Positions 642 through 12,579 of a stretch of 12,579 nt of DNA are shown one piece after another. This DNA is from a virus. Lineage: Duplodnaviria; Heunggongvirae; Uroviricota; Caudoviricetes. The first letter of the stretch is position 1. Each line of letters begins with the position of its first letter. The notes beneath the pieces were generated by a model. It was not told where the DNA came from. It was given only the letters and a program-made list of their open reading frames with translations, and ran no database searches. The stretch lies in the IMG/VR virus record IMGVR_UViG_3300014625_000033. The stretch is one strand, 5' to 3'. A program made the position numbers and the translations under genes.

Positions 642-848
642 CTTCATTTTCACTTTCTTAAATCTAACGACAGATGGCTAACATTTAAGTATTGTGAAAT
701 ATTATCAAATGTAATCATCATTGATTTACAAAAGATACATTTTGCCCCGAAAGGATTTCTGTCAGAAACATCAAAAGATGATGTTCTATACTGAGAACCA
801 TGGCAACACGGGCATCTAAAGTGAATATGGTTTGTAATATTTTCTACC

Positions 849-1061
849 TCAAAGTGCCACTACATGAACAGCTGCAGGGCCTTTAGGTCCGTTCTCAATA
901 CCAAATTCGACTTCCTGATTCTCAGTTAACGTTTTGAAATCGTTGCTCTGAATAGCTGAGAAATGCACAAACACATCTTTGCTACCATCTTTCGGCGTGA
1001 TGAAACCAAAACCTTTTTCAGGGTTAAACCATTTCACTAAACCAGTCATTTTGTTAGACAT
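849..1061 (-). CDS. cspI: Cold-shock protein CspI (CspA family, S1-like cold-shock domain), 70 aa
   Basis: Translation [70 protein letters not shown] carries the RNP1/RNP2 motifs (KGFGFI, VFVHF) and matches CspI as I recall it. SD AAGG upstream of the tandem ATGs. Confidence 0.9.
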
Positions 1062-1204
1062 CATTATTACCTTTTGAAGAAGTTAGCCCTTGGGCAGAAT
1101 GGTCCGAAAAAAAATATCAGAAAGAAAAACCAACAAGGAAATCTCAAGAGGTACAAATAATAAAATTATAACAATGACTGCTTCAGATAATTTTGTAACA
1201 AACC

Positions 1205-1241
1205 AGAACACCATTAACGCATGATTAACCAACCATAGCAA
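1205..1241 (-). promoter_or_regulatory. Candidate cspA-type promoter for cspI: -35 TTGCTA (1241..1236), 17-bp spacer, -10 GTTAAT (1218..1213), AT-rich UP-like region upstream; predicts a 5'UTR of about 145 nt
   Basis: Minus-strand read: TTGCTAtggttggttaatcatgcGTTAAT. This resembles the cspA promoter architecture (TTGCAT / CTTAAT), and the predicted leader length matches the long leaders typical of cold-shock genes. Confidence 0.4.
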
Positions 1242-2764: not shown

Positions 2765-2980
2765 TTACTCTCCTCTCGCAGCCTTACGCCTGTCTTCTTT
2801 AATCTTGAAATAAAGATTTGTCAGATACGTCAGCATGCCAAATACCAGACTACCCAATACACCTATTGCCGCCCACTGTGAGGGCGTGACTTTATCGAGC
2901 AACTGTAAAAACCAGTAGCCAGCACTGCCTGCAGAGGTGCTGTAGGCGATGCCCGTTGTTAACTTATCCATGGATTTCAT
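2765..2980 (-). CDS. essQ: Class II pinholin (phage 21 S21-like) with dual-start motif MKSM, 71/68 aa
   Basis: [71 protein letters not shown] has two TM segments and matches S21 as I recall it. ATGs at 2980 and 2971; strong SD GGAGGTGAGG. The ORF-track upstream extension is not used. Confidence 0.85.
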
Positions 2981-3070
2981 AGCCTCACCTCCGCAGATAA
3001 CGGATGGTGTACACGGTTTGGTTCGAAGAAGGAAAGAAGTTACATTAGCGTAAGGCCCGAACATCTATTC

Positions 3071-3101
3071 AAAAAGAAAAACGCCAGCAATTATTCTGGC
3101 G
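3071..3101 (-). terminator. Intrinsic terminator downstream of the AraC-family gene: hairpin CGCCAG-(8 nt)-CTGGCG followed on the minus strand by a T-rich run (TTTTTCTTTTT)
   Basis: Plus strand reads aaaaagaaaaaCGCCAGcaattattCTGGCG. It sits between the cargo gene and the holin start. Confidence 0.5.
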
Positions 3102-3170
3102 TAGCTAAAAATATCGTATAATCTTACACTTCAAAAAATAACTTTATAAAATACCATCACATCATATCTT

Positions 3171-3884
3171 CTAAGAAAATCTTGATAAATATTGGTGCGG
3201 AGGCACACCAAAATATCCTCTAAAAACACTTACAAAATATGATGCATTGTCATACCCGCATATTCCCGCCACCTTGCCGACAGTATGGTTACTGTAGATC
3301 AATAATCTTTGCGCCATCATCATTCGTTCTTCAAGAATTAATTTACTAAACGATAATCCTTCGTCTTTTAATTTTCTTTTTAACAAACTCTCGCTCATAT
3401 ATAATCTTGAAGATATATCACAAAGTCTCCATGACGCAGAGATATCCGAGTGAATAATAGCCTTAACTTTACAACCTAAGCTATTAAGACTTCCGAACAA
3501 AAAACTTTGCACTATTTTCTCTGAAGATAAGACAGCAAGACATGCAAGTGATATTTGATTTCTAACTACATCCACGGTTTTGCTATCACAATTCAAGCAT
3601 GCAACCAAGTTCTTTAACAATGAAAAATCTTCACATTCTACTATCAAGTATGACGGATAAAACCTTCTTACAGAAAAAGGTGAGAGTGTGTAGTTTTTAA
3701 AGAAATCATTAACTGTTTTCTCCTCAACATCTACGATCATTAGATGATCTGTATTTGACGAAAAAAGATCTTTTAAATTGTATTCAATGAGGACAGCATT
3801 TCCTTTTTTAAACAAAATATCTTCTTTACCAATTCGGACACCAAACGAGTTCAACACCAAAATGATAGAACATATGTATGGCAT
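3171..3884 (-). CDS. AraC/XylS-family transcriptional regulator (AppY/Rns-like short type), 237 aa from ATG at 3884; markedly AT-rich cargo gene
   Basis: C-terminal double HTH typical of AraC/XylS (…SESLLKRKLKDEGLSFSKLILEERMMMAQRLL…VGKVAGICGYDNASYFVSVFRGYFGVPPHQYLSRF). SD AGGTGGA precedes the ATG at 3884; the ORF-track start at 3893 is GTG. Base composition is far lower in GC than the flanking phage genes. Confidence 0.8.
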   Translation of the reverse strand: MPYICSIILVLNSFGVRIGKEDILFKKGNAVLIEYNLKDLFSSNTDHLMIVDVEEKTVNDFFKNYTLSPFSVRRFYPSYLIVECEDFSLLKNLVACLNCDSKTVDVVRNQISLACLAVLSSEKIVQSFLFGSLNSLGCKVKAIIHSDISASWRLCDISSRLYMSESLLKRKLKDEGLSFSKLILEERMMMAQRLLIYSNHTVGKVAGICGYDNASYFVSVFRGYFGVPPHQYLSRFS

Positions 3885-4290
3885 ATTATCCACCTGATAT
3901 CATTGGGGTTACACCAGGTAAGTATAGGTGGAAAATCAATATTCGCCAGTTCAACAATAAGGAAAATCTCATTGCATCACAACTATAAAACCATGTGTTT
4001 AACTCACAAAAAACAAATCATTAAACTAATCTGTTATATTATAATAGCTGCGTGCAATAATAATATTATATGCTCTTAATATTCACTTGAAATATCTTCA
4101 TATAAAAACAGATTGAATAAAATCTTTTGGGGCTGGTATGTTTACCAACATTAAATTGCATCTCAATGTTTTCTTTAGCGTGAACAGGATTTTTATAAAA
4201 ACTGACACTATGAGCATCATAGCGTAGTTTTTACGATTGTAAATATCCTGCATACAGGAACTCATCACTTTCAGATGATATCGCATACAG

Positions 4291-5250
4291 TTAATTCACC
4301 ATCAGTCTTAGAGCCAGTTCTTCCGGATAGGGATCGAAGTAGTTCTGTGTAAGCAAGTAATCATTAGGATACTCACCCAGATAATGCTTCAGCAGAGTCA
4401 ACGGCGCAAGAAGAGGCAATGTGCCAAAGCGATAGTTAAGTATAACCTCGCTCAACTCTTTACGCTGGCGTGTACTTAAGTAATTACTAAAATACCCCTG
4501 TATATGCATCAGCACATTCGTGTGATTTTTACGTGATGCTGGTTTTCTGAGAATCGCCATCAGATTATCACGATACACCTCAAAGTATGATTCAAGGTCC
4601 GCCCACTCGTGTATTGCAGCCACAAATGGTCCCATATCTTTATAGCCTGCCTGGCTATGCGCCAACAACTGAAGCTTATAACGACTATGAAAAGCTAATA
4701 ACTCTCTTCTTGATAATTTCTCCTTGTAAAGGTGATTGAGCTCATGCAAAGCAAAAACTCTTTCAATAAAATTCTCACGAAGCACTGGATCATGTAATCG
4801 CCCATCCTCTTCAACCGGTAGCCAGGAAAACTTTTCCATCAAAGTGCTCGTAAATAGTCCCACTCCATCTTTACGACCTCGATTACCATTTTCATCATAG
4901 ACACGCACGCGCTCCATGCCACAGCTGGGAGATTTAGCACAAACCACAAACCCCGATACATCCTTTAATTTGTCCATATAAGAACGACTAAACTCTGTCA
5001 TTCTCTCTGTCACATCCTCATTCTGGTCGTGGCTGAAACACATCCGTATATTTCCTTGCTTCGAGCGCACAAGTCGTAGAGCAGGACGCGGAACTGGCAG
5101 CCCTATAGCCATTTCCGGACATACTGGTCTGAATGTTACCCATTCCACTAATTTGTCCATTAAAAAGTCATCTCTTTTGTGACCACCATCAAAACGAACA
5201 GCAGAACCGCCCAAACAACCGCTGATCCCAATCACAGGTTTTTTTATCAT
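4291..5250 (-). CDS. DUF523 (TudS-like, putative [4Fe-4S] thio-nucleobase desulfurase fold) fused to DUF1722 (YbgA-like), 319 aa
   Basis: N-terminus MIKKPVIGISGCLGGSAVRFDGGHK with further conserved Cys in PVCPEM and VVCAKSPSCG matches the DUF523/TudS pattern; the C-terminal half resembles DUF1722/YbgA. Strong SD GGGGGAGGA before the ATG at 5250. Confidence 0.75.
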   Translation of the reverse strand: MIKKPVIGISGCLGGSAVRFDGGHKRDDFLMDKLVEWVTFRPVCPEMAIGLPVPRPALRLVRSKQGNIRMCFSHDQNEDVTERMTEFSRSYMDKLKDVSGFVVCAKSPSCGMERVRVYDENGNRGRKDGVGLFTSTLMEKFSWLPVEEDGRLHDPVLRENFIERVFALHELNHLYKEKLSRRELLAFHSRYKLQLLAHSQAGYKDMGPFVAAIHEWADLESYFEVYRDNLMAILRKPASRKNHTNVLMHIQGYFSNYLSTRQRKELSEVILNYRFGTLPLLAPLTLLKHYLGEYPNDYLLTQNYFDPYPEELALRLMVN

Positions 5251-5442
5251 TTCCTCCCCCTTGACTAATTCATTAACACATAAACTTTGTAGTGCACGGA
5301 CTAAATTGCCTTTCTGGCTTCATCACTGACAATTTTTCTGTTATTGACTATTCCTAATATAGTAGGAAAGTTCTTTAAGTGATCGGTCGTACTCATCTAT
5401 CTTTCATACTTACTCTCAACTATCAAAAGTACAGGATTTATT

Positions 5443-5967
5443 ATGAAGTTATGGCCTGTGTTGACTGGCATTGCACTCTCTTTCACTCTTATAGCATGTA
5501 AGGCCCCGACACCACCTAAAGGTGTGCAGCCGATTACAAATTTTGACGCCAACCGCTACCTCGGAAAATGGTATGAAATAGCTCGCCTCGAGAACTGGTT
5601 CGAACGTGGTCTGGAACAGGTCAGCGCTACTTATGAAAAACGGAACGACGGAGGGATTCGCGTACTTAACCGTGGATACGATCCAACGAAAAACAAATGG
5701 AGCGAGAGCGAAGGTAAAGCATACTTTACTGGAGATACTAAAACTGCAGCGTTGAAAGTTTCGTTTTTTGGCCCCTTCTATGGTGGCTATAATGTAATCA
5801 AACTGGATGATGAGTATAAGTATGCTCTTGTCAGTGGTCCGAACAGAGAATACCTATGGATTCTGGCAAGGACCCAAACTATTCCAGATAATGTAAAAGC
5901 AGACTATGTGCGTACCGCTCAAAAGTTGGGATTCAATGTCAATGAACTATTATGGGTTAAACAATAA
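5443..5967 (+). CDS. blc: Bacterial lipocalin (Blc family) outer-membrane lipoprotein, 174 aa
   Basis: Lipoprotein signal with lipobox LIAC, then lipocalin motifs (FDANRYLGKWYEIARLENWFERG; KVSFFGPFYGGYNVIKLD; YLWILARTQ), nearly collinear with E. coli Blc as I recall it. SD AGGA 7 nt upstream. Transcribed opposite to all flanking phage genes. Confidence 0.85.
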   Translation: MKLWPVLTGIALSFTLIACKAPTPPKGVQPITNFDANRYLGKWYEIARLENWFERGLEQVSATYEKRNDGGIRVLNRGYDPTKNKWSESEGKAYFTGDTKTAALKVSFFGPFYGGYNVIKLDDEYKYALVSGPNREYLWILARTQTIPDNVKADYVRTAQKLGFNVNELLWVKQ

Positions 5968-5995: not shown

Positions 5996-6022
5996 AAAAA
6001 AACCAGCCTTTGGGGAGGCTGG
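5996..6022 (-). terminator. Intrinsic terminator (candidate tR') downstream of the Q gene: minus strand CCAGCC-tccccaaa-GGCTGG followed by T7
   Basis: Plus strand reads aaaaaaaCCAGCCtttggggAGGCTGG. It lies about 100 nt downstream of the Q stop, where lambdoid phages place PR'/qut/tR'. It also lies just downstream of the convergent blc-like gene. Confidence 0.55.
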
Positions 6023-6122
6023 CTAAATCAGGAAACAAGCTGTTATATGATAATAACTACGTTGCGATTCCAACATTTAAAATGTTAGACTAATGAAAAT
6101 CAGACAGCAACTTTTCCTTTAA
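6023..6122 (-). promoter_or_regulatory. Candidate late promoter PR' / qut region between Q and the terminator
   Basis: Positional inference from lambdoid architecture. Minus strand contains TTGGAA-(17-18 nt)-CATATA-like elements, but I could not pick a single convincing -35/-10 pair. Confidence 0.3.
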
Positions 6123-6500
6123 TTATTTCGAACAATCAGCATCCATCTCCAATCGGAGATCCAACACCATCAGCATGCCCTCCACTACGCCCTCAGCTTT
6201 CTGGAGCATCCTGCCAACCCAACAATCAGATCGCCCATGCTTACGTGCAAGCGCCATAAAAGTCATGCCGCCGACATAATAGTCCACCAATAAATCATGT
6301 AAATCGCTGTTGTTTTTTTTCAGGCGAGCCATACATTCACAAATGATCATCGCGTCATCGTCACAGCATTGCGGACGAGATCTTACTTTTGAAGGAATTA
6401 ATCCCTTAAAACCGGCGGCAATGGACGACCAGGTCACATCTTCATGATTATTAGCCGCCCATGCCCCCCAACGCTCAAGAACCATCTGAATATCACGCAT
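6123..6500 (-). CDS. quuQ: Late-gene antiterminator Q (phage 82 / QuuD family), 125 aa from ATG at 6500
   Basis: [63 protein letters not shown]... matches the QuuD/QuuQ sequence as I recall it, including the Cys-rich zinc motif. SD GGAG precedes the ATG at 6500; the ORF-track start at 6515 is TTG. Confidence 0.85.
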
Positions 6501-6517
6501 CAACTTACTCCACAAAA

Positions 6518-7522
6518 TTAGGCCAGCACACCAATTGCCAGCGCGCGATCGATAAATCGAAAAATCAGCTCCAGTTGGGAGCCATACTTCTCTTCAAATG
6601 CCACGGTATCCGTATGCAACTCGTCGTGATGCTTTCTGCACAAAGGCAAAACAAAGAGATCATGTGCTTTGGTTCCCATTCCGCCCTGCCCGTGACCAAT
6701 CAGATGATGCGGATCGTCGGCTGGCATACCGCAGCAAGCACACGGCTGTGTCTTAACCCAGCGTGTGTATTTCTCCTTAACCCACCGGTGACGTTTAGGC
6801 AGCTTCATGAAAGATTCCGGAGACTCTGGATCAACGGTGATGCTTACCACCGTCTTTTCCTGTGATGGGTTTTGTTGCTGGTGGGCGTGAGGCAACGGTG
6901 CAAGATTTTTTGTGCGCTGTTTCAATATGCTGGTGGCGGTCTGCTCTCCCGGTACGATGTCGCTTTCGCGGTACACCGAGCAGATTTTTTCCGCTGGTAA
7001 TCCCAGCGAGCGACGTAATACCGCTTCCGGTAGCGCGTCCGCCAGCTGATTGCGGACCGCCCACCAGGATAATTCAGCCAGAGATAATTCACGCTCCTGC
7101 GTACCGCTTATTGCGTGACCGATGACGTCAATCATCCATGCTGACAGGTTTTGATGAGCAAGTTGCTCGAGTGATTCGGATGTCTGGTCACGCAGCTGGT
7201 TGTCGCAGTGCCAGCACAACACCATTGCGCCGGTACCATATCGGTGAATAACGGTTTCGCTGTGATGATAATCGCCGTGTGGCCACTGGCAGGATTTAAT
7301 ATGGCGCAACAGCCAGTCAGACAATGCACCAGCACCACCAGCAGCACGAATTACCCGTGCGTTACTGAAAAACGGCAGCAATGTTTTGTCTTCCACCAGC
7401 GGCTGGCGAACGGCAGGAACGACCCCGGACGGCAGATTACGCATGCTTTTCGGTTCCGGCTCCACCAGTACCCGGGTATTGTGGAATACCGGCATGGATT
7501 CACGGCCCGGCTTAACGACCAC
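6518..7522 (-). CDS. ydfU: YdfU-like DUF968 protein with C-terminal HNH-like Cys/His motif, 334 aa (GTG at 7522; alternative ATG at 7495)
   Basis: C-terminus [22 protein letters not shown]...[10 protein letters not shown] has CxxC...HH...C..HH spacing typical of HNH nucleases. Position between rem and Q matches K-12 Qin. Confidence 0.75.
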
Positions 7523-7772
7523 CAGCCCGAGTTCCGGTATCCCTGGTGTCGATAGCCTTCCAGCGTTCGAATATCTTCACTCGATTAACGCTAAGCGCTC
7601 GCTGATCAACCGCGCCACCTTCATATGTGACACGCTGAACATCGATGTTCGGGCGCTCTTTCAAAGCCCAGAATGCTTCAGTGATTAATATCGTCGCCTG
7701 CTCCTGTGTCATTCCTGGTCGACATATCCAGGCATCCAGAGCCTCACGAGCCTGTTCAGGAGTGATTTTCAT
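7512..7772 (-). CDS. rem: Rem-like small protein, 86 aa
   Basis: ATG at 7772; translation MKITPEQAREALDAWICRPGMTQEQATILITEAFWALKERPNIDVQRVTYEGG... Synteny with K-12 Qin rem. It overlaps both neighbours (dicC-like 3' end and ydfU 5' end). Confidence 0.6.
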   Translation of the reverse strand: MKITPEQAREALDAWICRPGMTQEQATILITEAFWALKERPNIDVQRVTYEGGAVDQRALSVNRVKIFERWKAIDTRDTGTRAGGR

Positions 7773-8063: not shown

Positions 8064-8471
8064 ATGGATACAAGAACCCTAGGCCAGCGAGTTCTGGCGC
8101 GACGAAAAGAATTACGCTTAACACAACGAGAAGCTGCGCGCCTCGCTGGAGTTGCTCACGTCACAATTTCACAATGGGAAAGAGACGAAACCCAGCCAGT
8201 CGGAAAACGATTGTTTGCTTTAGCGGATGCTCTGAAGTGCTCACCTACATGGCTAATGTTTGGTGACGAAGACAAGGCACCAGTGCCTGCACAAGAACTT
8301 CATGTGGAAACAGAGCTAACTCCCAACCACAAAGAATTGATCGAATTATTCGATGCTCTTCCATCTTCCGAGCAGGAAGCCTTGCTGTCTGAAATGCGCG
8401 CAAGAGTAGAAAACTTCAACAAACTCTTCGAAGAAATGCTTAAAGCGCGTAAAAATAAATCAATAAAATAA
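8064..8471 (+). CDS. dicA: DicA-type prophage repressor (HTH_XRE / cI-like), 135 aa
   Basis: N-terminal HTH (LTQREAARLAGVAHVTISQWER) and the segment KRLFALADALKCSPTWLMFGDEDK...NFNKLFEEMLKAR resemble DicA as I recall it. Weak or absent SD suggests a near-leaderless mRNA, like lambda cI from PRM. Confidence 0.85.
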   Translation: MDTRTLGQRVLARRKELRLTQREAARLAGVAHVTISQWERDETQPVGKRLFALADALKCSPTWLMFGDEDKAPVPAQELHVETELTPNHKELIELFDALPSSEQEALLSEMRARVENFNKLFEEMLKARKNKSIK

Positions 8472-9613: not shown

Positions 9614-9671
9614 TTTCTGGTGACGTTTGGCGGTATCAGTTTTACTCCGTGACTGCTCTGCCGCCGTTTTT
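9614..9671 (+). ncRNA. dicF: DicF small regulatory RNA (Hfq-dependent, represses ftsZ translation)
   Basis: Sequence TTTCTGGTGACGTTTGGCGGTATCAGTTTTACTCCGTGACTGCTCTGCCGCCGTTTTT matches the E. coli DicF sequence I recall almost base for base, including the terminal hairpin and U-tract. Confidence 0.9.
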
Positions 9672-11264: not shown

Positions 11265-11298
11265 CTAAAAGCCACACTAACTAATGAGAGAAGTTGAA

Positions 11299-12579
11299 AT
11301 GAAATATCCGACAGGCGTGGAAAACCATGGAGGGAAATTACGTATCTGGTTTGTTTATAAAGGCGTAAGAGTCAGGGAAAACCTGGGGGTTCCTGACACA
11401 GCAAAAAACAGGCGCGTTGCAGGTGAGCTACGCGCCTCTGTTTGTTACGCAATAAAAACTGGTGTTTTCGACTATGCAAAACAGTTTCCCTCCTCACGCA
11501 ATCTGGAAAAATTTGGTGAGGCCCGACAAGATTTAACCATAAAAGAACTGGCTGAAAAATTTCTGGCACTGAAAGAAACTGAAGTCGCAAAAACATCACT
11601 CAACACATACCGTGCCGTCATCAAAAATATCCTGAGCATAATCGGTGAAAAAAATCTTGCCTCATCGATTAATAAAGAAAAATTACTGGAGGTTCGTAAA
11701 GAGCTACTGACTGGATACCAGATCCCCAAAAGTAACTATATTGTTACACAACCAGGGAGATCGGCTGTAACTGTAAATAATTACATGACAAATCTTAACG
11801 CCGTGTTCCAGTTTGGTGTTGATAACGGTTACCTGGCAGATAACCCGTTTAAGGGGATCTCGCCATTAAAGGAATCAAGAACCATTCCGGATCCTCTTTC
11901 GCGGGAGGAATTCATCCGTCTTATCGATGCGTGCAGAAATCAGCAAGCCAAAAATTTATGGTGTGTTTCTGTTTATACTGGCGTTCGCCCTGGTGAGCTG
12001 TGTGCACTTGGATGGGAGGACATAGATCTGAAAAATGGAACAATGATGATCAGGAGAAATTTAGCAAAAGACCGTTTCACGGTCCCAAAAACACAGGCGG
12101 GAACCAATCGGGTCATTCATCTTATTAAGCCAGCAATCGACGCTCTCCGGAGTCAGATGACATTAACGAGACTGAGCAAAGAGCATATCATTGATGTTCA
12201 CCTCAGAGAGTATGGCAGAACAGAAAAACATAAATGCACCTTTGTTTTTCAACCTGAAGTGTCAGCGAGAGTAAAAAATTATGGTGACCATTTTACCGTT
12301 GACTCAATAAGGCAGATGTGGGACGCAGCGATAAAACGTGCCGGACTCCGCCATCGAAAATCATATCAGTCGAGACATACTTATGCCTGCTGGTCGCTGA
12401 CAGCTGGTGCTAACCCTGCATTTATAGCAAACCAGATGGGCCATGCAGATGCGCAAATGGTATTTCAGGTATACGGAAAATGGATGTCTGAAAACAATAA
12501 TGCACAGGTAGCTTTGTTAAATACACAGTTAAGCGAGTTTGCCCCAACCATGCCCCATAACGAAGCAATGAAAAATTAA
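11299..12579 (+). CDS. intQ: Phage integrase, tyrosine recombinase family (N-terminal arm-binding domain + C-terminal catalytic domain), 426 aa from ATG at 11299
   Basis: Catalytic-domain signatures are present (VYTGVRPGELCALGWEDIDL...; SRHTYACWSLTAGANPAFIANQMGHADAQMVFQVYGKW, i.e. R...HxxR...Y). SD GAGAGAAG before 11299. Stop TAA is at the last 3 nt of the window. Confidence 0.9.
   Translation: MKYPTGVENHGGKLRIWFVYKGVRVRENLGVPDTAKNRRVAGELRASVCYAIKTGVFDYAKQFPSSRNLEKFGEARQDLTIKELAEKFLALKETEVAKTSLNTYRAVIKNILSIIGEKNLASSINKEKLLEVRKELLTGYQIPKSNYIVTQPGRSAVTVNNYMTNLNAVFQFGVDNGYLADNPFKGISPLKESRTIPDPLSREEFIRLIDACRNQQAKNLWCVSVYTGVRPGELCALGWEDIDLKNGTMMIRRNLAKDRFTVPKTQAGTNRVIHLIKPAIDALRSQMTLTRLSKEHIIDVHLREYGRTEKHKCTFVFQPEVSARVKNYGDHFTVDSIRQMWDAAIKRAGLRHRKSYQSRHTYACWSLTAGANPAFIANQMGHADAQMVFQVYGKWMSENNNAQVALLNTQLSEFAPTMPHNEAMKN

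What the first reader, a model, noticed from the sequence alone, without database searches (positions are those of the whole stretch)
3171..4290. Low-GC AraC/XylS regulator with long AT-rich upstream region inside the prophage: candidate host-rewiring regulator
The gene and its 400-bp upstream region are far more AT-rich than the surrounding phage genes, which is typical of horizontally acquired, H-NS-silenced regulators. Short AraC-family regulators carried on prophages (e.g. AppY/EnvY on DLP12) are known to regulate host genes. The N-terminus here (MPYICSIILVLNSF...) resembles the AppY-type architecture as I recall it. It may control the adjacent cargo genes and/or host stress regulons.
Basis: partly seen in the sequence, partly recalled or inferred. 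Interest (0 to 1): 0.55.

Follow-up and report, generated by a model that had tools for sequence, protein, structure and literature searches.

The report
Prophage-borne PatE/AppY-like AraC regulator gene
This is an intact but unstudied AraC-family regulator gene carried as self-contained cargo in an E. coli lambda-like prophage; its relatives PatE and AppY switch on host acid-resistance genes, so it is an ordinary new member of a known class, not a new kind of system.

Summary
A 237-aa ORF (3171-3884, minus strand, ATG start) has the AraC dual helix-turn-helix domain. The gene is 33.5% GC and its 406-bp upstream region 31% GC, against 44% for the rest of the window.

It sits in a Qin-like lambdoid prophage between the Q antiterminator and the holin. 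Beside it are a Blc lipocalin gene and a RudS-type tRNA 4-thiouridine desulfidase gene.

The protein aligns over its full length with PatE of O157 prophage CP-933H (48%), GadW (33%), AppY (30%) and YdeO (29%), and shares their N-terminal MxxxCS motif. It looks like a typical moron:
- a promoter conserved as far as patE, with a sigma-S-like -10 (CTATACTT)
- a strong ribosome-binding site
- a conserved terminator

dN/dS of 0.22-0.26 argues against decay. About 18% of complete E. coli genomes and several isolated phages carry the cassette. More distant relatives occupy the same Q-holin slot without the neighbouring cargo.

Most likely it activates host acid-resistance promoters (gadE, hdeAB) as PatE and AppY do. 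This is inferred, not shown. H-NS silencing and control of the neighbouring genes remain untested. Verdict: new member of a known kind, modest interest.

The parts
3171..3884 (-). AraC/XylS-family regulator CDS, 237 aa plus stop. Residues 1-135 (3884-3480) form the N-terminal beta-sandwich/helical domain. Residues 136-237 (3479-3174) form the dual-HTH DNA-binding domain.
   Evidence: ORF. Pfam HTH_18 and HTH_AraC. RefSeq CDS WP_001146314.1. All invariant family residues are present. AlphaFold model pLDDT 85.9. dN/dS 0.22-0.26.
3890..3895 (-). Shine-Dalgarno AGGTGG, 5 nt upstream of the ATG at 3884
   Evidence: Read from the sequence. Conserved in all seven family members aligned.
3921..3949 (-). 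Predicted own promoter: -35-like CTGGCG (3949-3944), 17-nt spacer, -10 TATACT (3926-3921) preceded by C at 3927. CTATACTTA resembles a sigma-S extended -10. The implied leader is about 30 nt.
   Evidence: The block TGGC(A/G)...TATACTT is conserved in the window, the 85%, 76%, 60% and 50% relatives and upstream of patE. The sigma-S assignment is my inference from the published consensus. No start site has been mapped.
3950..4204 (-). AT-rich variable upstream spacer with indels between alleles, including a roughly 54-bp segment (4130-4077) present only in this allele. No conserved ORF and no Rfam match.
   Evidence: Alignment. GC 31%. Rfam finds nothing. The ORFs at 4098-4286 and 3903-4079 have no Pfam hit and fall in the indel region.
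4205..4243 (-). Conserved element just downstream of the rudS/ybgA stop. It reads as a promoter-like TTTACA-16-TATGAT (10/12) overlapping a hairpin and T-run (4225-4205). It is probably the weak terminator of the upstream gene; alternatively it is a distal promoter.
   Evidence: Pattern scan. Conserved in the 85% and 76% alleles although the flanks diverge.
3081..3102 (-). Intrinsic terminator of the regulator gene (ACGCCAG-loop-CTGGCG followed by a T-run), between its stop codon and the holin gene
   Evidence: Pattern scan. Fold -11.3 kcal/mol, z -2.05. Conserved down to the 50% relative L011.
4291..5250 (-). Context: neighbouring cargo gene, a DUF523 (TudS) + DUF1722 fusion, i.e. a RudS-type tRNA 4-thiouridine desulfidase
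   Evidence: Pfam. 91.8% identical to phage 1H12 gp66, with Cys12, Cys44 and Cys110 conserved. That protein is RudS_vir, which was tested experimentally in PMC11417400.
5443..5967 (+). Context: Blc outer-membrane lipocalin cargo gene, antisense to late transcription
   Evidence: Pfam Lipocalin_2. NCBIfam Blc 312.6 bits against a cutoff of 267.
6001..6500 (-). Context: Q antiterminator gene (6123-6500) and the terminator about 100 nt downstream of it (6024-6001), presumably tR'. Q-modified late transcription would run leftwards through rudS and the regulator gene into the lysis genes.
   Evidence: Pfam Phage_antitermQ E 8e-51. Terminator scan. RefSeq coordinates. Read-through itself is inferred from lambdoid phage biology.
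2765..2980 (-). Context: class II holin (essD-like), the first lysis gene downstream of the moron
   Evidence: Pfam Phage_holin_2_1. RefSeq 216-nt CDS. Conserved SD and ATG.

Best explanation
The gene encodes a functional two-domain AraC/XylS transcription factor of the clade that contains PatE, GadW, AppY and YdeO. It is carried as a self-contained moron in the Q-to-holin slot of a Qin-like lambdoid prophage. It has its own conserved promoter, ribosome-binding site and terminator, and a foreign base composition.

Shown here: domain content, full-length homology, an intact reading frame, purifying selection, promoter and terminator conservation, the genomic slot, and the distribution in genomes and viable phages.

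Inferred: in the lysogen the gene is transcribed from its own promoter, probably in stationary phase or under stress, given the sigma-S-like -10 and the AT-rich upstream DNA of the type H-NS binds. The protein then binds AT-rich host promoters through its two recognition helices. The first helix-turn-helix (HTH) is nearly identical to that of PatE. The most likely targets are those of the acid fitness island (gadE, hdeAB), which PatE, PsrB, AppY, GadW and YdeO all activate, so the effect would be raised acid or stress tolerance of the lysogen. On prophage induction the gene would also be read through by Q-antiterminated late transcription.
For: - Domain and fold: Pfam AraC HTH domains. The solved-structure search puts the GadX DNA-binding domain first (E 4e-21), then CsvR, Rns and ToxT. 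The model (pLDDT 85.9) best matches the full-length Rns, CsvR and ToxT structures, and the GadX DNA-binding domain superposes at 1.3 A.
- Homology: PatE 48%, GadW 33%, AppY 30% and YdeO 29% over the full length. The DNA-binding domain is 65% identical to PatE and 46% to GadW. The HTH1 recognition helix SESLLKRKLKDEG differs from PatE's SESLLKRKLKEEG at one residue.
- Function of relatives: PatE, PsrB and AppY activate gadE, hdeAB and the AR2 system (PMC10877973; PMC10057817).
- Selection: dN/dS is 0.22-0.26 overall, 0.13-0.15 in the DNA-binding domain and 0.32-0.49 in the N-terminal domain.
- Expression signals: promoter, SD and terminator are conserved across the family, including patE.
- Not tied to the neighbours: the 60% and 50% relatives sit directly between Q genes of other families and, where the contig extends that far (L011), the holin, without blc or rudS. 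PatE and P0020 sit at prophage ends.
- Distribution: 976 of 5426 complete E. coli genomes match the region, 330 of them at 99% or more. Isolated phages IdasGreatGrand and 1H12 carry the same cassette.
Against: - There is no expression, binding or phenotype data for this protein. No paper mentions WP_001146314 and PHROG 1450 is labelled 'unknown function'.
- At 48% identity to PatE, target specificity cannot be transferred safely. The N-terminal domain, which would sense any signal, is only 35% identical.
- The -35 element in this allele is weak (CTGGCG).
- The H-NS high-affinity motif is not enriched.
- In the sister allele class about 43% of carrier genomes have a frameshift, so the function is dispensable in many lineages.
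Confidence: 0.55

Rival explanations
1. It is a dedicated local regulator of the cargo cassette. It controls transcription of the adjacent RudS-type tRNA s4U desulfidase and/or blc through the 5251-5442 divergent intergenic region, rather than host genes.
For: In all seven loci inspected with alleles of 76% identity or more, the gene is linked to blc and rudS in the same order. AraC-family regulators often act on neighbouring genes. The RudS paper notes that RudS regulation is unknown and suspects adjacent regulators.
Against: The 60% and 50% relatives and PatE keep the same conserved promoter and the same kind of prophage slot but lack blc and rudS. Synonymous divergence shows that the regulator gene has a different history from blc and rudS (dS 0.31 against 0.05 for window versus L007, with a breakpoint inside the gene). 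No motif is shared between the two intergenic regions.
Confidence: 0.2
2. It is a silent or decaying passenger. The gene is kept only by linkage in the prophage, is never meaningfully expressed, and has no effect on host or phage.
For: It has a very AT-rich promoter region of the type usually silenced. The sister allele carries a T8 to T7 frameshift in 232 of 534 genomes. The window allele is 6 aa shorter at the C-terminus than its relatives. Some copies are annotated as frameshifted.
Against: dN/dS is 0.22-0.26, with the strongest constraint on the DNA-binding domain. All invariant residues are present. The promoter, SD and terminator are conserved over about 50% protein divergence. The gene is retained in viable, recently isolated phages.
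Confidence: 0.12
3. It is a phage life-cycle regulator that modulates late or lysis gene expression or induction, explaining its fixed position just upstream of the holin.
For: It recurs immediately upstream of the holin and downstream of Q, across three different Q families.
Against: The Q-holin interval is the classical moron slot. K-12 Qin holds cspB and cspF there. Close family members PatE and P0020 sit at prophage ends, far from the lysis genes. Many lambdoid phages lack any such gene. A conserved terminator separates it from the holin.
Confidence: 0.06

Closest known systems
PatE (Z0321 / ECs_0287; prophage CP-933H = Sp1, O island 8, E. coli O157:H7)
   Same: It is prophage-borne, of similar size (247 aa) and low in GC (35%). 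It is 48% identical over the full length and 65% in the DNA-binding domain. The first HTH recognition helix is almost identical. The -35/-10/SD block upstream is homologous. PatE activates gadE, gadBC and hdeAB.
   Different: At 48% identity it is not an ortholog. PatE sits at the prophage end beyond the tail-fibre and invertase genes, not in the Q-holin slot. PatE has no blc or rudS neighbours. Its -13 base is A rather than C. That ECs_0287 is PatE is my inference: it is the only AraC-type gene in Sp1/OI-8.
AppY (DLP12 prophage, E. coli K-12)
   Same: It is a prophage-encoded AraC/XylS regulator with 32% GC. It is 30% identical over the full length and has the same N-terminal MxYxCS motif. 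It is repressed by H-NS, depends on RpoS, and activates gadE/AR2 directly.
   Different: Identity is low (23% in the N-terminal domain, 39% in the DNA-binding domain). AppY lies at the distal end of DLP12, next to ompT.
GadW, YdeO and GadX (chromosomal regulators of the acid fitness island)
   Same: GadW (33%) and YdeO (29%) align over the full length. The GadX DNA-binding domain is 41% identical, is the best solved-structure hit (3MKL, E 4e-21) and superposes on the model at 1.3 A.
   Different: These are core-genome genes, not phage genes. Scores against the NCBIfam equivalog models are far below cutoff: YdeO 112 against 348 and GadX 90 against 500.
PsrA / PsrB (O157 prophages CP-933N / CP-933O)
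   Same: They are prophage-encoded AraC-like regulators that raise gadE expression, and PsrB binds the hdeA and gadE promoters.
   Different: I could not retrieve their sequences and they are not in Sakai Sp6. In the O157:H7 genomes listed the only DNA-level match is a single place per genome, identified as the PatE locus in the one genome examined. PsrA/B are therefore more distant than PatE. They lie in effector-exchange loci.
Rns / CsvR / ToxT (virulence AraC regulators with solved full-length structures)
   Same: They are the best full-length structural matches to the model, with Foldseek E about 1e-11 to 1e-7. They share the architecture of a beta-sandwich N-domain plus a dual HTH.
   Different: Sequence identity is only 17-21%, and TM is about 0.45 because domain orientation differs. 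Their fatty-acid ligands and pocket residues were not examined here.

Membership tests
AraC/XylS transcription factors | C-terminal domain of about 100 aa with two helix-turn-helix motifs (PF12833 / PF00165) | tested here: met
   HTH_18 59.9 bits (cutoff 33.6) over residues 161-237. HTH_AraC 42.6 bits (cutoff 26.6). The model shows the seven-helix domain, and the GadX DNA-binding domain superposes at 1.3 A.
GadW/AppY/YdeO/PatE sub-clade of AraC/XylS | Full-length homology including the N-terminal domain, a size of about 240-255 aa, and the N-terminal M-x-x-x-C-S-(V/I) motif | tested here: met
   BLASTP covers residues 1 to about 235 with PatE (48%), GadW (33%), AppY (30%) and YdeO (29%). GadX and EnvY align confidently only in the C-terminal domain.
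GadW/AppY/YdeO/PatE sub-clade of AraC/XylS | Binds and activates the gadE and hdeAB (AR2) promoters | not testable with these tools
   Needs reporter, EMSA, ChIP or acid-survival assays. Only the similarity of the recognition helices was seen.
YdeO / GadX equivalogs (NCBIfam NF007407 / NF007432) | Score above the curated equivalog cutoff | tested here: not met
   YdeO model 112.3 bits against cutoff 348. GadX model 90 bits against cutoff 500. It is neither YdeO nor GadX.
PatE orthologs | High identity to Z0321/ECs_0287 and the same prophage position | tested here: not met
   48% identity, and a different slot (Q-holin rather than prophage end). A different protein (L011) is 84% identical to PatE.
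Phage morons | A gene not needed for the phage cycle, inserted between conserved phage genes and absent from related phages | tested here: met
   It lies between Q and the holin. K-12 Qin has cspB, cspF and ynfU in the same slot. The cassette occurs in Qin-like, DLP12-like and lambda-like backbones.
Phage morons | Own promoter and own terminator, with base composition different from the flanking genes | tested here: met
   Conserved -35/-10 and SD. Conserved intrinsic terminator at 3102-3081. GC 33.5% against 43-47%. Promoter activity itself has not been measured.
H-NS-silenced xenogeneic genes | AT-rich relative to the host genome | tested here: met
   31-33.5% GC, against about 51% for E. 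coli (established knowledge).
H-NS-silenced xenogeneic genes | H-NS occupancy and derepression in an hns mutant; presence of the high-affinity site TCGATAAATT | tested here: inconclusive
   There is no motif match (2 mismatches or fewer) within the 3885-4290 upstream region, and the single match inside the interval lies at 3182-3191, within the coding sequence. The window as a whole shows no enrichment: 26 matches against 20.5 expected. Occupancy cannot be tested in silico.

The most novel reading that the evidence does not exclude
The regulator could be the control element of a mobile 'stress-hardening' cassette. From a sigma-S/H-NS-gated promoter it would co-ordinate the phage-borne RudS tRNA-s4U eraser and the Blc lipocalin with the host GAD acid-resistance regulon. 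In the sister allele it would be switched on and off by slippage of a T8 tract, making this a phase-variable, phage-delivered rewiring of host stress physiology present in roughly a fifth of E. coli.
Probability: 0.12. Interest if true: 0.55.

Novelty: new member of a known kind. Interest (0 to 1): 0.3.

Why it matters
Prophage-encoded AraC regulators (AppY, PatE, PsrA/B) are known to plug into the E. coli acid-resistance network, which affects passage through the stomach and colonisation. This uncharacterised member and its close alleles are found in about 18% of complete E. coli genomes and in viable gut and environmental lambda-like phages. They could therefore be a common, overlooked source of strain-to-strain differences in stress regulation. 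The gene also lies next to a phage RudS tRNA-demodifying enzyme whose regulation is unknown. None of this changes current concepts. It would add one more case to an established theme.

Tried and rejected
- H-NS high-affinity motif scan: no enrichment in the window and no match within the 3885-4290 upstream region.
- Rfam at gathering and at permissive thresholds: nothing in 2950-4400, so there is no known sRNA or leader in the upstream region. The only weak hit is the terminator downstream of Q.
- The small ORFs in the upstream region (4098-4286 on the minus strand, 3903-4079 on the plus strand) have no Pfam hit, are not annotated in RefSeq and fall in a region with indels between alleles. I rejected them as genes.
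- The GTG at 3893 as start codon: rejected because it lies inside the SD, and the ATG at 3884 is conserved and used by RefSeq.
- Retrieving PsrA/PsrB for direct comparison failed. Sakai Sp6 holds no AraC-type gene, and the original PatE and PsrB papers are not in the library.
- P0026 (35% identity) turned out to be a plasmid fimbrial-operon regulator, not a prophage relative.
- A search for a motif shared between the regulator's upstream region and the rudS-blc intergenic region gave only short, chance-level repeats.
- The scan of species-representative genomes found no close relatives apart from one 85% copy on a contig mis-binned into a Nanosynbacter MAG. Everything else was GadW, AppY, YdeO or more distant.
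- Literature searches for this protein or cassette found no study of the regulator.

Full report
**What is there**

The window is a Qin-like lambdoid prophage of E. coli. Reading from right to left it contains:
- an integrase (11284-12579, plus strand)
- a DicF sRNA (9615-9666; Rfam 72.5 bits)
- a dicA-like repressor (8064-8471)
- ydfU/DUF968 (6518-7522, minus strand)
- a Q antiterminator (6123-6500, minus; Pfam E 8e-51)
- a Blc lipocalin (5443-5967, plus)
- a DUF523+DUF1722 'YbgA family' gene (4291-5250, minus)
- the gene in question (3171-3884, minus)
- a class II holin (2765-2980, minus), ydfR, lysozyme, Rz and cspI with its cspA-type leader

The 3000-4400 stretch is 100% identical to several complete E. 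coli chromosomes, for example strain H2. There RefSeq annotates the gene as WP_001146314.1, 'helix-turn-helix domain-containing protein'.

**Checking the observation**

The ORF finder starts the ORF at a GTG (3893). That GTG lies inside an AGGTGG Shine-Dalgarno (3895-3890), 5 nt upstream of the ATG at 3884. Both SD and ATG are conserved in all relatives.

Pfam finds HTH_18 (E 3e-16) and HTH_AraC (E 6e-11), both above their curated cutoffs.

The gene is 33.5% GC and the 406-bp upstream region 31%. The neighbouring genes are 43-47% and the rest of the window 44.4%. The interval is essentially the GC minimum of the window.

**Family placement**

BLASTP and tblastn against reference genes fetched from K-12 and O157 Sakai give full-length alignments:

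| Reference | Identity | Extent |
|---|---|---|
| ECs_0287 (PatE) | 48% | full length |
| GadW | 33% | full length |
| AppY | 30% | full length |
| YdeO | 29% | full length |
| GadX, EnvY | about 40% | C-terminal domain only |

ECs_0287 is the only AraC-type gene of prophage Sp1 (CP-933H, O island 8). I therefore take it to be PatE (Z0321), as described in PMC10877973.

Identity by domain is 65% (DNA-binding) and 35% (N-terminal) to PatE, and 46% and 24% to GadW. The first recognition helix is SESLLKRKLKDEG here and SESLLKRKLKEEG in PatE.

NCBIfam equivalog models for YdeO and GadX score far below cutoff (112 against 348, and 90 against 500), so the protein is neither of these. PHROGs places it in phrog_1450, 'unknown function' (E 8e-97).

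An AlphaFold model built from a 10-sequence family alignment is confident (pLDDT 85.9, pTM 0.72). It shows an N-terminal beta-sandwich with helices, followed by the seven-helix DNA-binding domain. Its best full-length PDB matches are Rns, CsvR and ToxT, and the GadX DNA-binding domain superposes at 1.3 A.

**Is the gene alive?**

All 50 invariant family columns are present. I compared the window with two diverged alleles in the same cassette, L007 (85% aa) and L008 (76% aa). dN/dS is 0.22-0.26 overall, 0.13-0.15 in the DNA-binding domain and 0.32-0.49 in the N-terminal domain. This is purifying selection, strongest on DNA binding, and not decay.

The gene evolves faster than its neighbours, which are 92-98% identical at the protein level. 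Synonymous divergence is discordant: window versus L007 gives dS 0.31 for this gene against 0.05 for rudS and blc. Within the gene it is 0.11 in the 5' half and 0.69 in the 3' half. The cassette is therefore mosaic, with a breakpoint inside the gene.

**Anatomy of a moron**

I aligned the 140 nt upstream of seven family members: the window, the 85%, 76%, 60% and 50% relatives, patE and P0020. The alignment shows a conserved block (T/C)TGGC(A/G)-17/18 nt-TATACTT, then the SD and ATG.

In the window the -10 is TATACT at 3926-3921, preceded by C. CTATACTTA is close to the published sigma-S extended -10 consensus; that assignment is my inference from the literature. The -35 is a weak CTGGCG (3949-3944).

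Downstream, an intrinsic terminator (3102-3081; -11.3 kcal/mol, z -2.05) is conserved even in the 50% relative.

The rest of the 406-bp upstream region is an AT-rich spacer that varies by indels between alleles. It includes about 54 bp present only in this allele. A conserved element next to the rudS stop (4243-4205) looks like a weak terminator or a promoter-like site. No Rfam family and no conserved small ORF lies there.

Own promoter, own terminator, foreign composition and a position between conserved phage modules are the textbook features of a moron. In K-12 Qin the same Q-holin slot holds cspB, cspF and ynfU instead.

**Distribution and context of relatives**

By megablast, 976 of 5426 complete E. 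coli genomes contain the 3000-4400 region. Of these, 330 carry the gene at 99% identity or more and about 670 at 80-90%.

The blc-rudS-regulator cassette lies between Q and the holin in Qin-like, DLP12-like and lambda-like prophages. It also occurs in isolated phages: IdasGreatGrand (86% identical regulator) and 1H12 and about ten 'Lambda_ev' infant-gut phages (77%). Mathieu et al. (PMC6969025) listed blc as a moron in more than half of their lambda phages but did not discuss the regulator.

Relatives at 60% (L010) and 50% (L011; this one is 84% identical to PatE) sit directly downstream of Q genes of other Pfam families, without blc or rudS. L011 shows the holin immediately downstream. The L010 contig ends at the regulator gene. 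PatE and P0020 sit at prophage ends beyond the tail-fibre genes.

So the regulator travels independently of its present neighbours. In species-representative genomes nothing closer than GadW, AppY or YdeO was found, apart from one mis-binned phage contig. The clade is an accessory, essentially Escherichia-phage family.

**Mechanism**

The steps shown here are those above. The rest is inferred.

All characterised members of the clade activate the glutamate-dependent acid-resistance circuit, mainly through the gadE and hdeAB promoters. These are PatE, PsrB, AppY, GadW, GadX and YdeO. AppY and PatE are tied to stationary phase and RpoS, and AppY is also repressed by H-NS. The recognition helices here are very close to PatE's.

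The most likely function is therefore a phage-supplied activator or counter-silencer of the host acid fitness island. It would be expressed from its own stress-type promoter in the lysogen and be swept up by Q-dependent late transcription on induction. I give this 0.55.

A role as local regulator of rudS and blc (0.2) is weakened by the cargo-less relatives. A silent passenger (0.12) is weakened by the selection data. A phage life-cycle role (0.06) is weakened by family members that lie far from the lysis genes.

H-NS silencing is plausible from composition alone. The high-affinity H-NS motif is not enriched.

**Novelty**

The exact protein is already in public databases under generic names and is seen on at least 1000 contigs. 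I found no study of it. It is a new, uncharacterised member of a well-known kind, the prophage-encoded AraC-like regulators that rewire host stress genes. Interest is modest: 0.3.

Noticed in passing
window 4291-5250 (minus strand): The adjacent 'YbgA family' gene is a TudS(DUF523)+DUF1722 fusion. It is 91.8% identical to Escherichia phage 1H12 gp66, with the three Fe-S cysteines (C12, C44, C110) conserved. That protein is RudS_vir, shown experimentally to remove 4-thiouridine from tRNA (PMC11417400). The prophage therefore carries a tRNA-demodifying enzyme as cargo.
   Followed up: partly
L007 about 7592-7599 and L009 about 7589-7595; equivalent to window about 3766-3756: The sister allele class (85% aa identity, 534 complete genomes) has a T8 run in codons about 40-43. 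It is exactly T8 (in frame) in 242 genomes and exactly T7 (frameshifted, annotated as a pseudogene in L009) in 232 genomes. The window allele has the run interrupted (TCTTTTTT). This could be a clonal pseudogene, homopolymer assembly error or phase-variable on/off switching; it is unresolved.
   Followed up: partly
window 4028-4053 and 6037-6062: A 26-nt direct repeat matches at 22 of 26 positions. One copy lies in the regulator's upstream region. The other lies in the short transcribed leader between the Q stop and the terminator at 6024-6001. It is present in the 85% allele but not in the 76% allele. It may be a relic of an older junction, when the regulator sat directly after Q as in L010 and L011, or it may be chance (about 0.05 expected).
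   Followed up: partly
window 3171-3884 versus L007 6984-7715: There is a recombination breakpoint inside the regulator gene. Synonymous divergence is 0.11 in the 5' half, like the upstream rudS and blc, but 0.69 in the 3' half, like or above the downstream holin (0.36).
   Followed up: partly
window 5443-5967 (plus strand): The Blc lipocalin gene scores above the NCBIfam Blc cutoff. It is oriented antisense to Q-dependent late transcription, so induction would produce antisense RNA across it. Blc was reported as a moron in more than 50% of infant-gut lambda phages (PMC6969025).
   Followed up: no
window 9615-9666 (plus) and 803-1208 (minus): A DicF sRNA gene (Rfam 72.5 bits) and a cspA-type thermoregulator leader upstream of the cspI-like gene (111 bits). 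Both are typical of Qin.
   Followed up: no
L020 (JARKOR010000151.1, 3.2 kb): An 85% identical copy of the regulator lies on a short contig binned into a 'Candidatus Nanosynbacter' MAG. This is almost certainly a mis-binned E. coli phage contig. A second contig of the same MAG carries a YdeO-like gene.
   Followed up: no
window 4077-4130: A segment of about 54 bp in the upstream region is present in this allele but absent from the 85% and 76% alleles. Its function is unknown.
   Followed up: no
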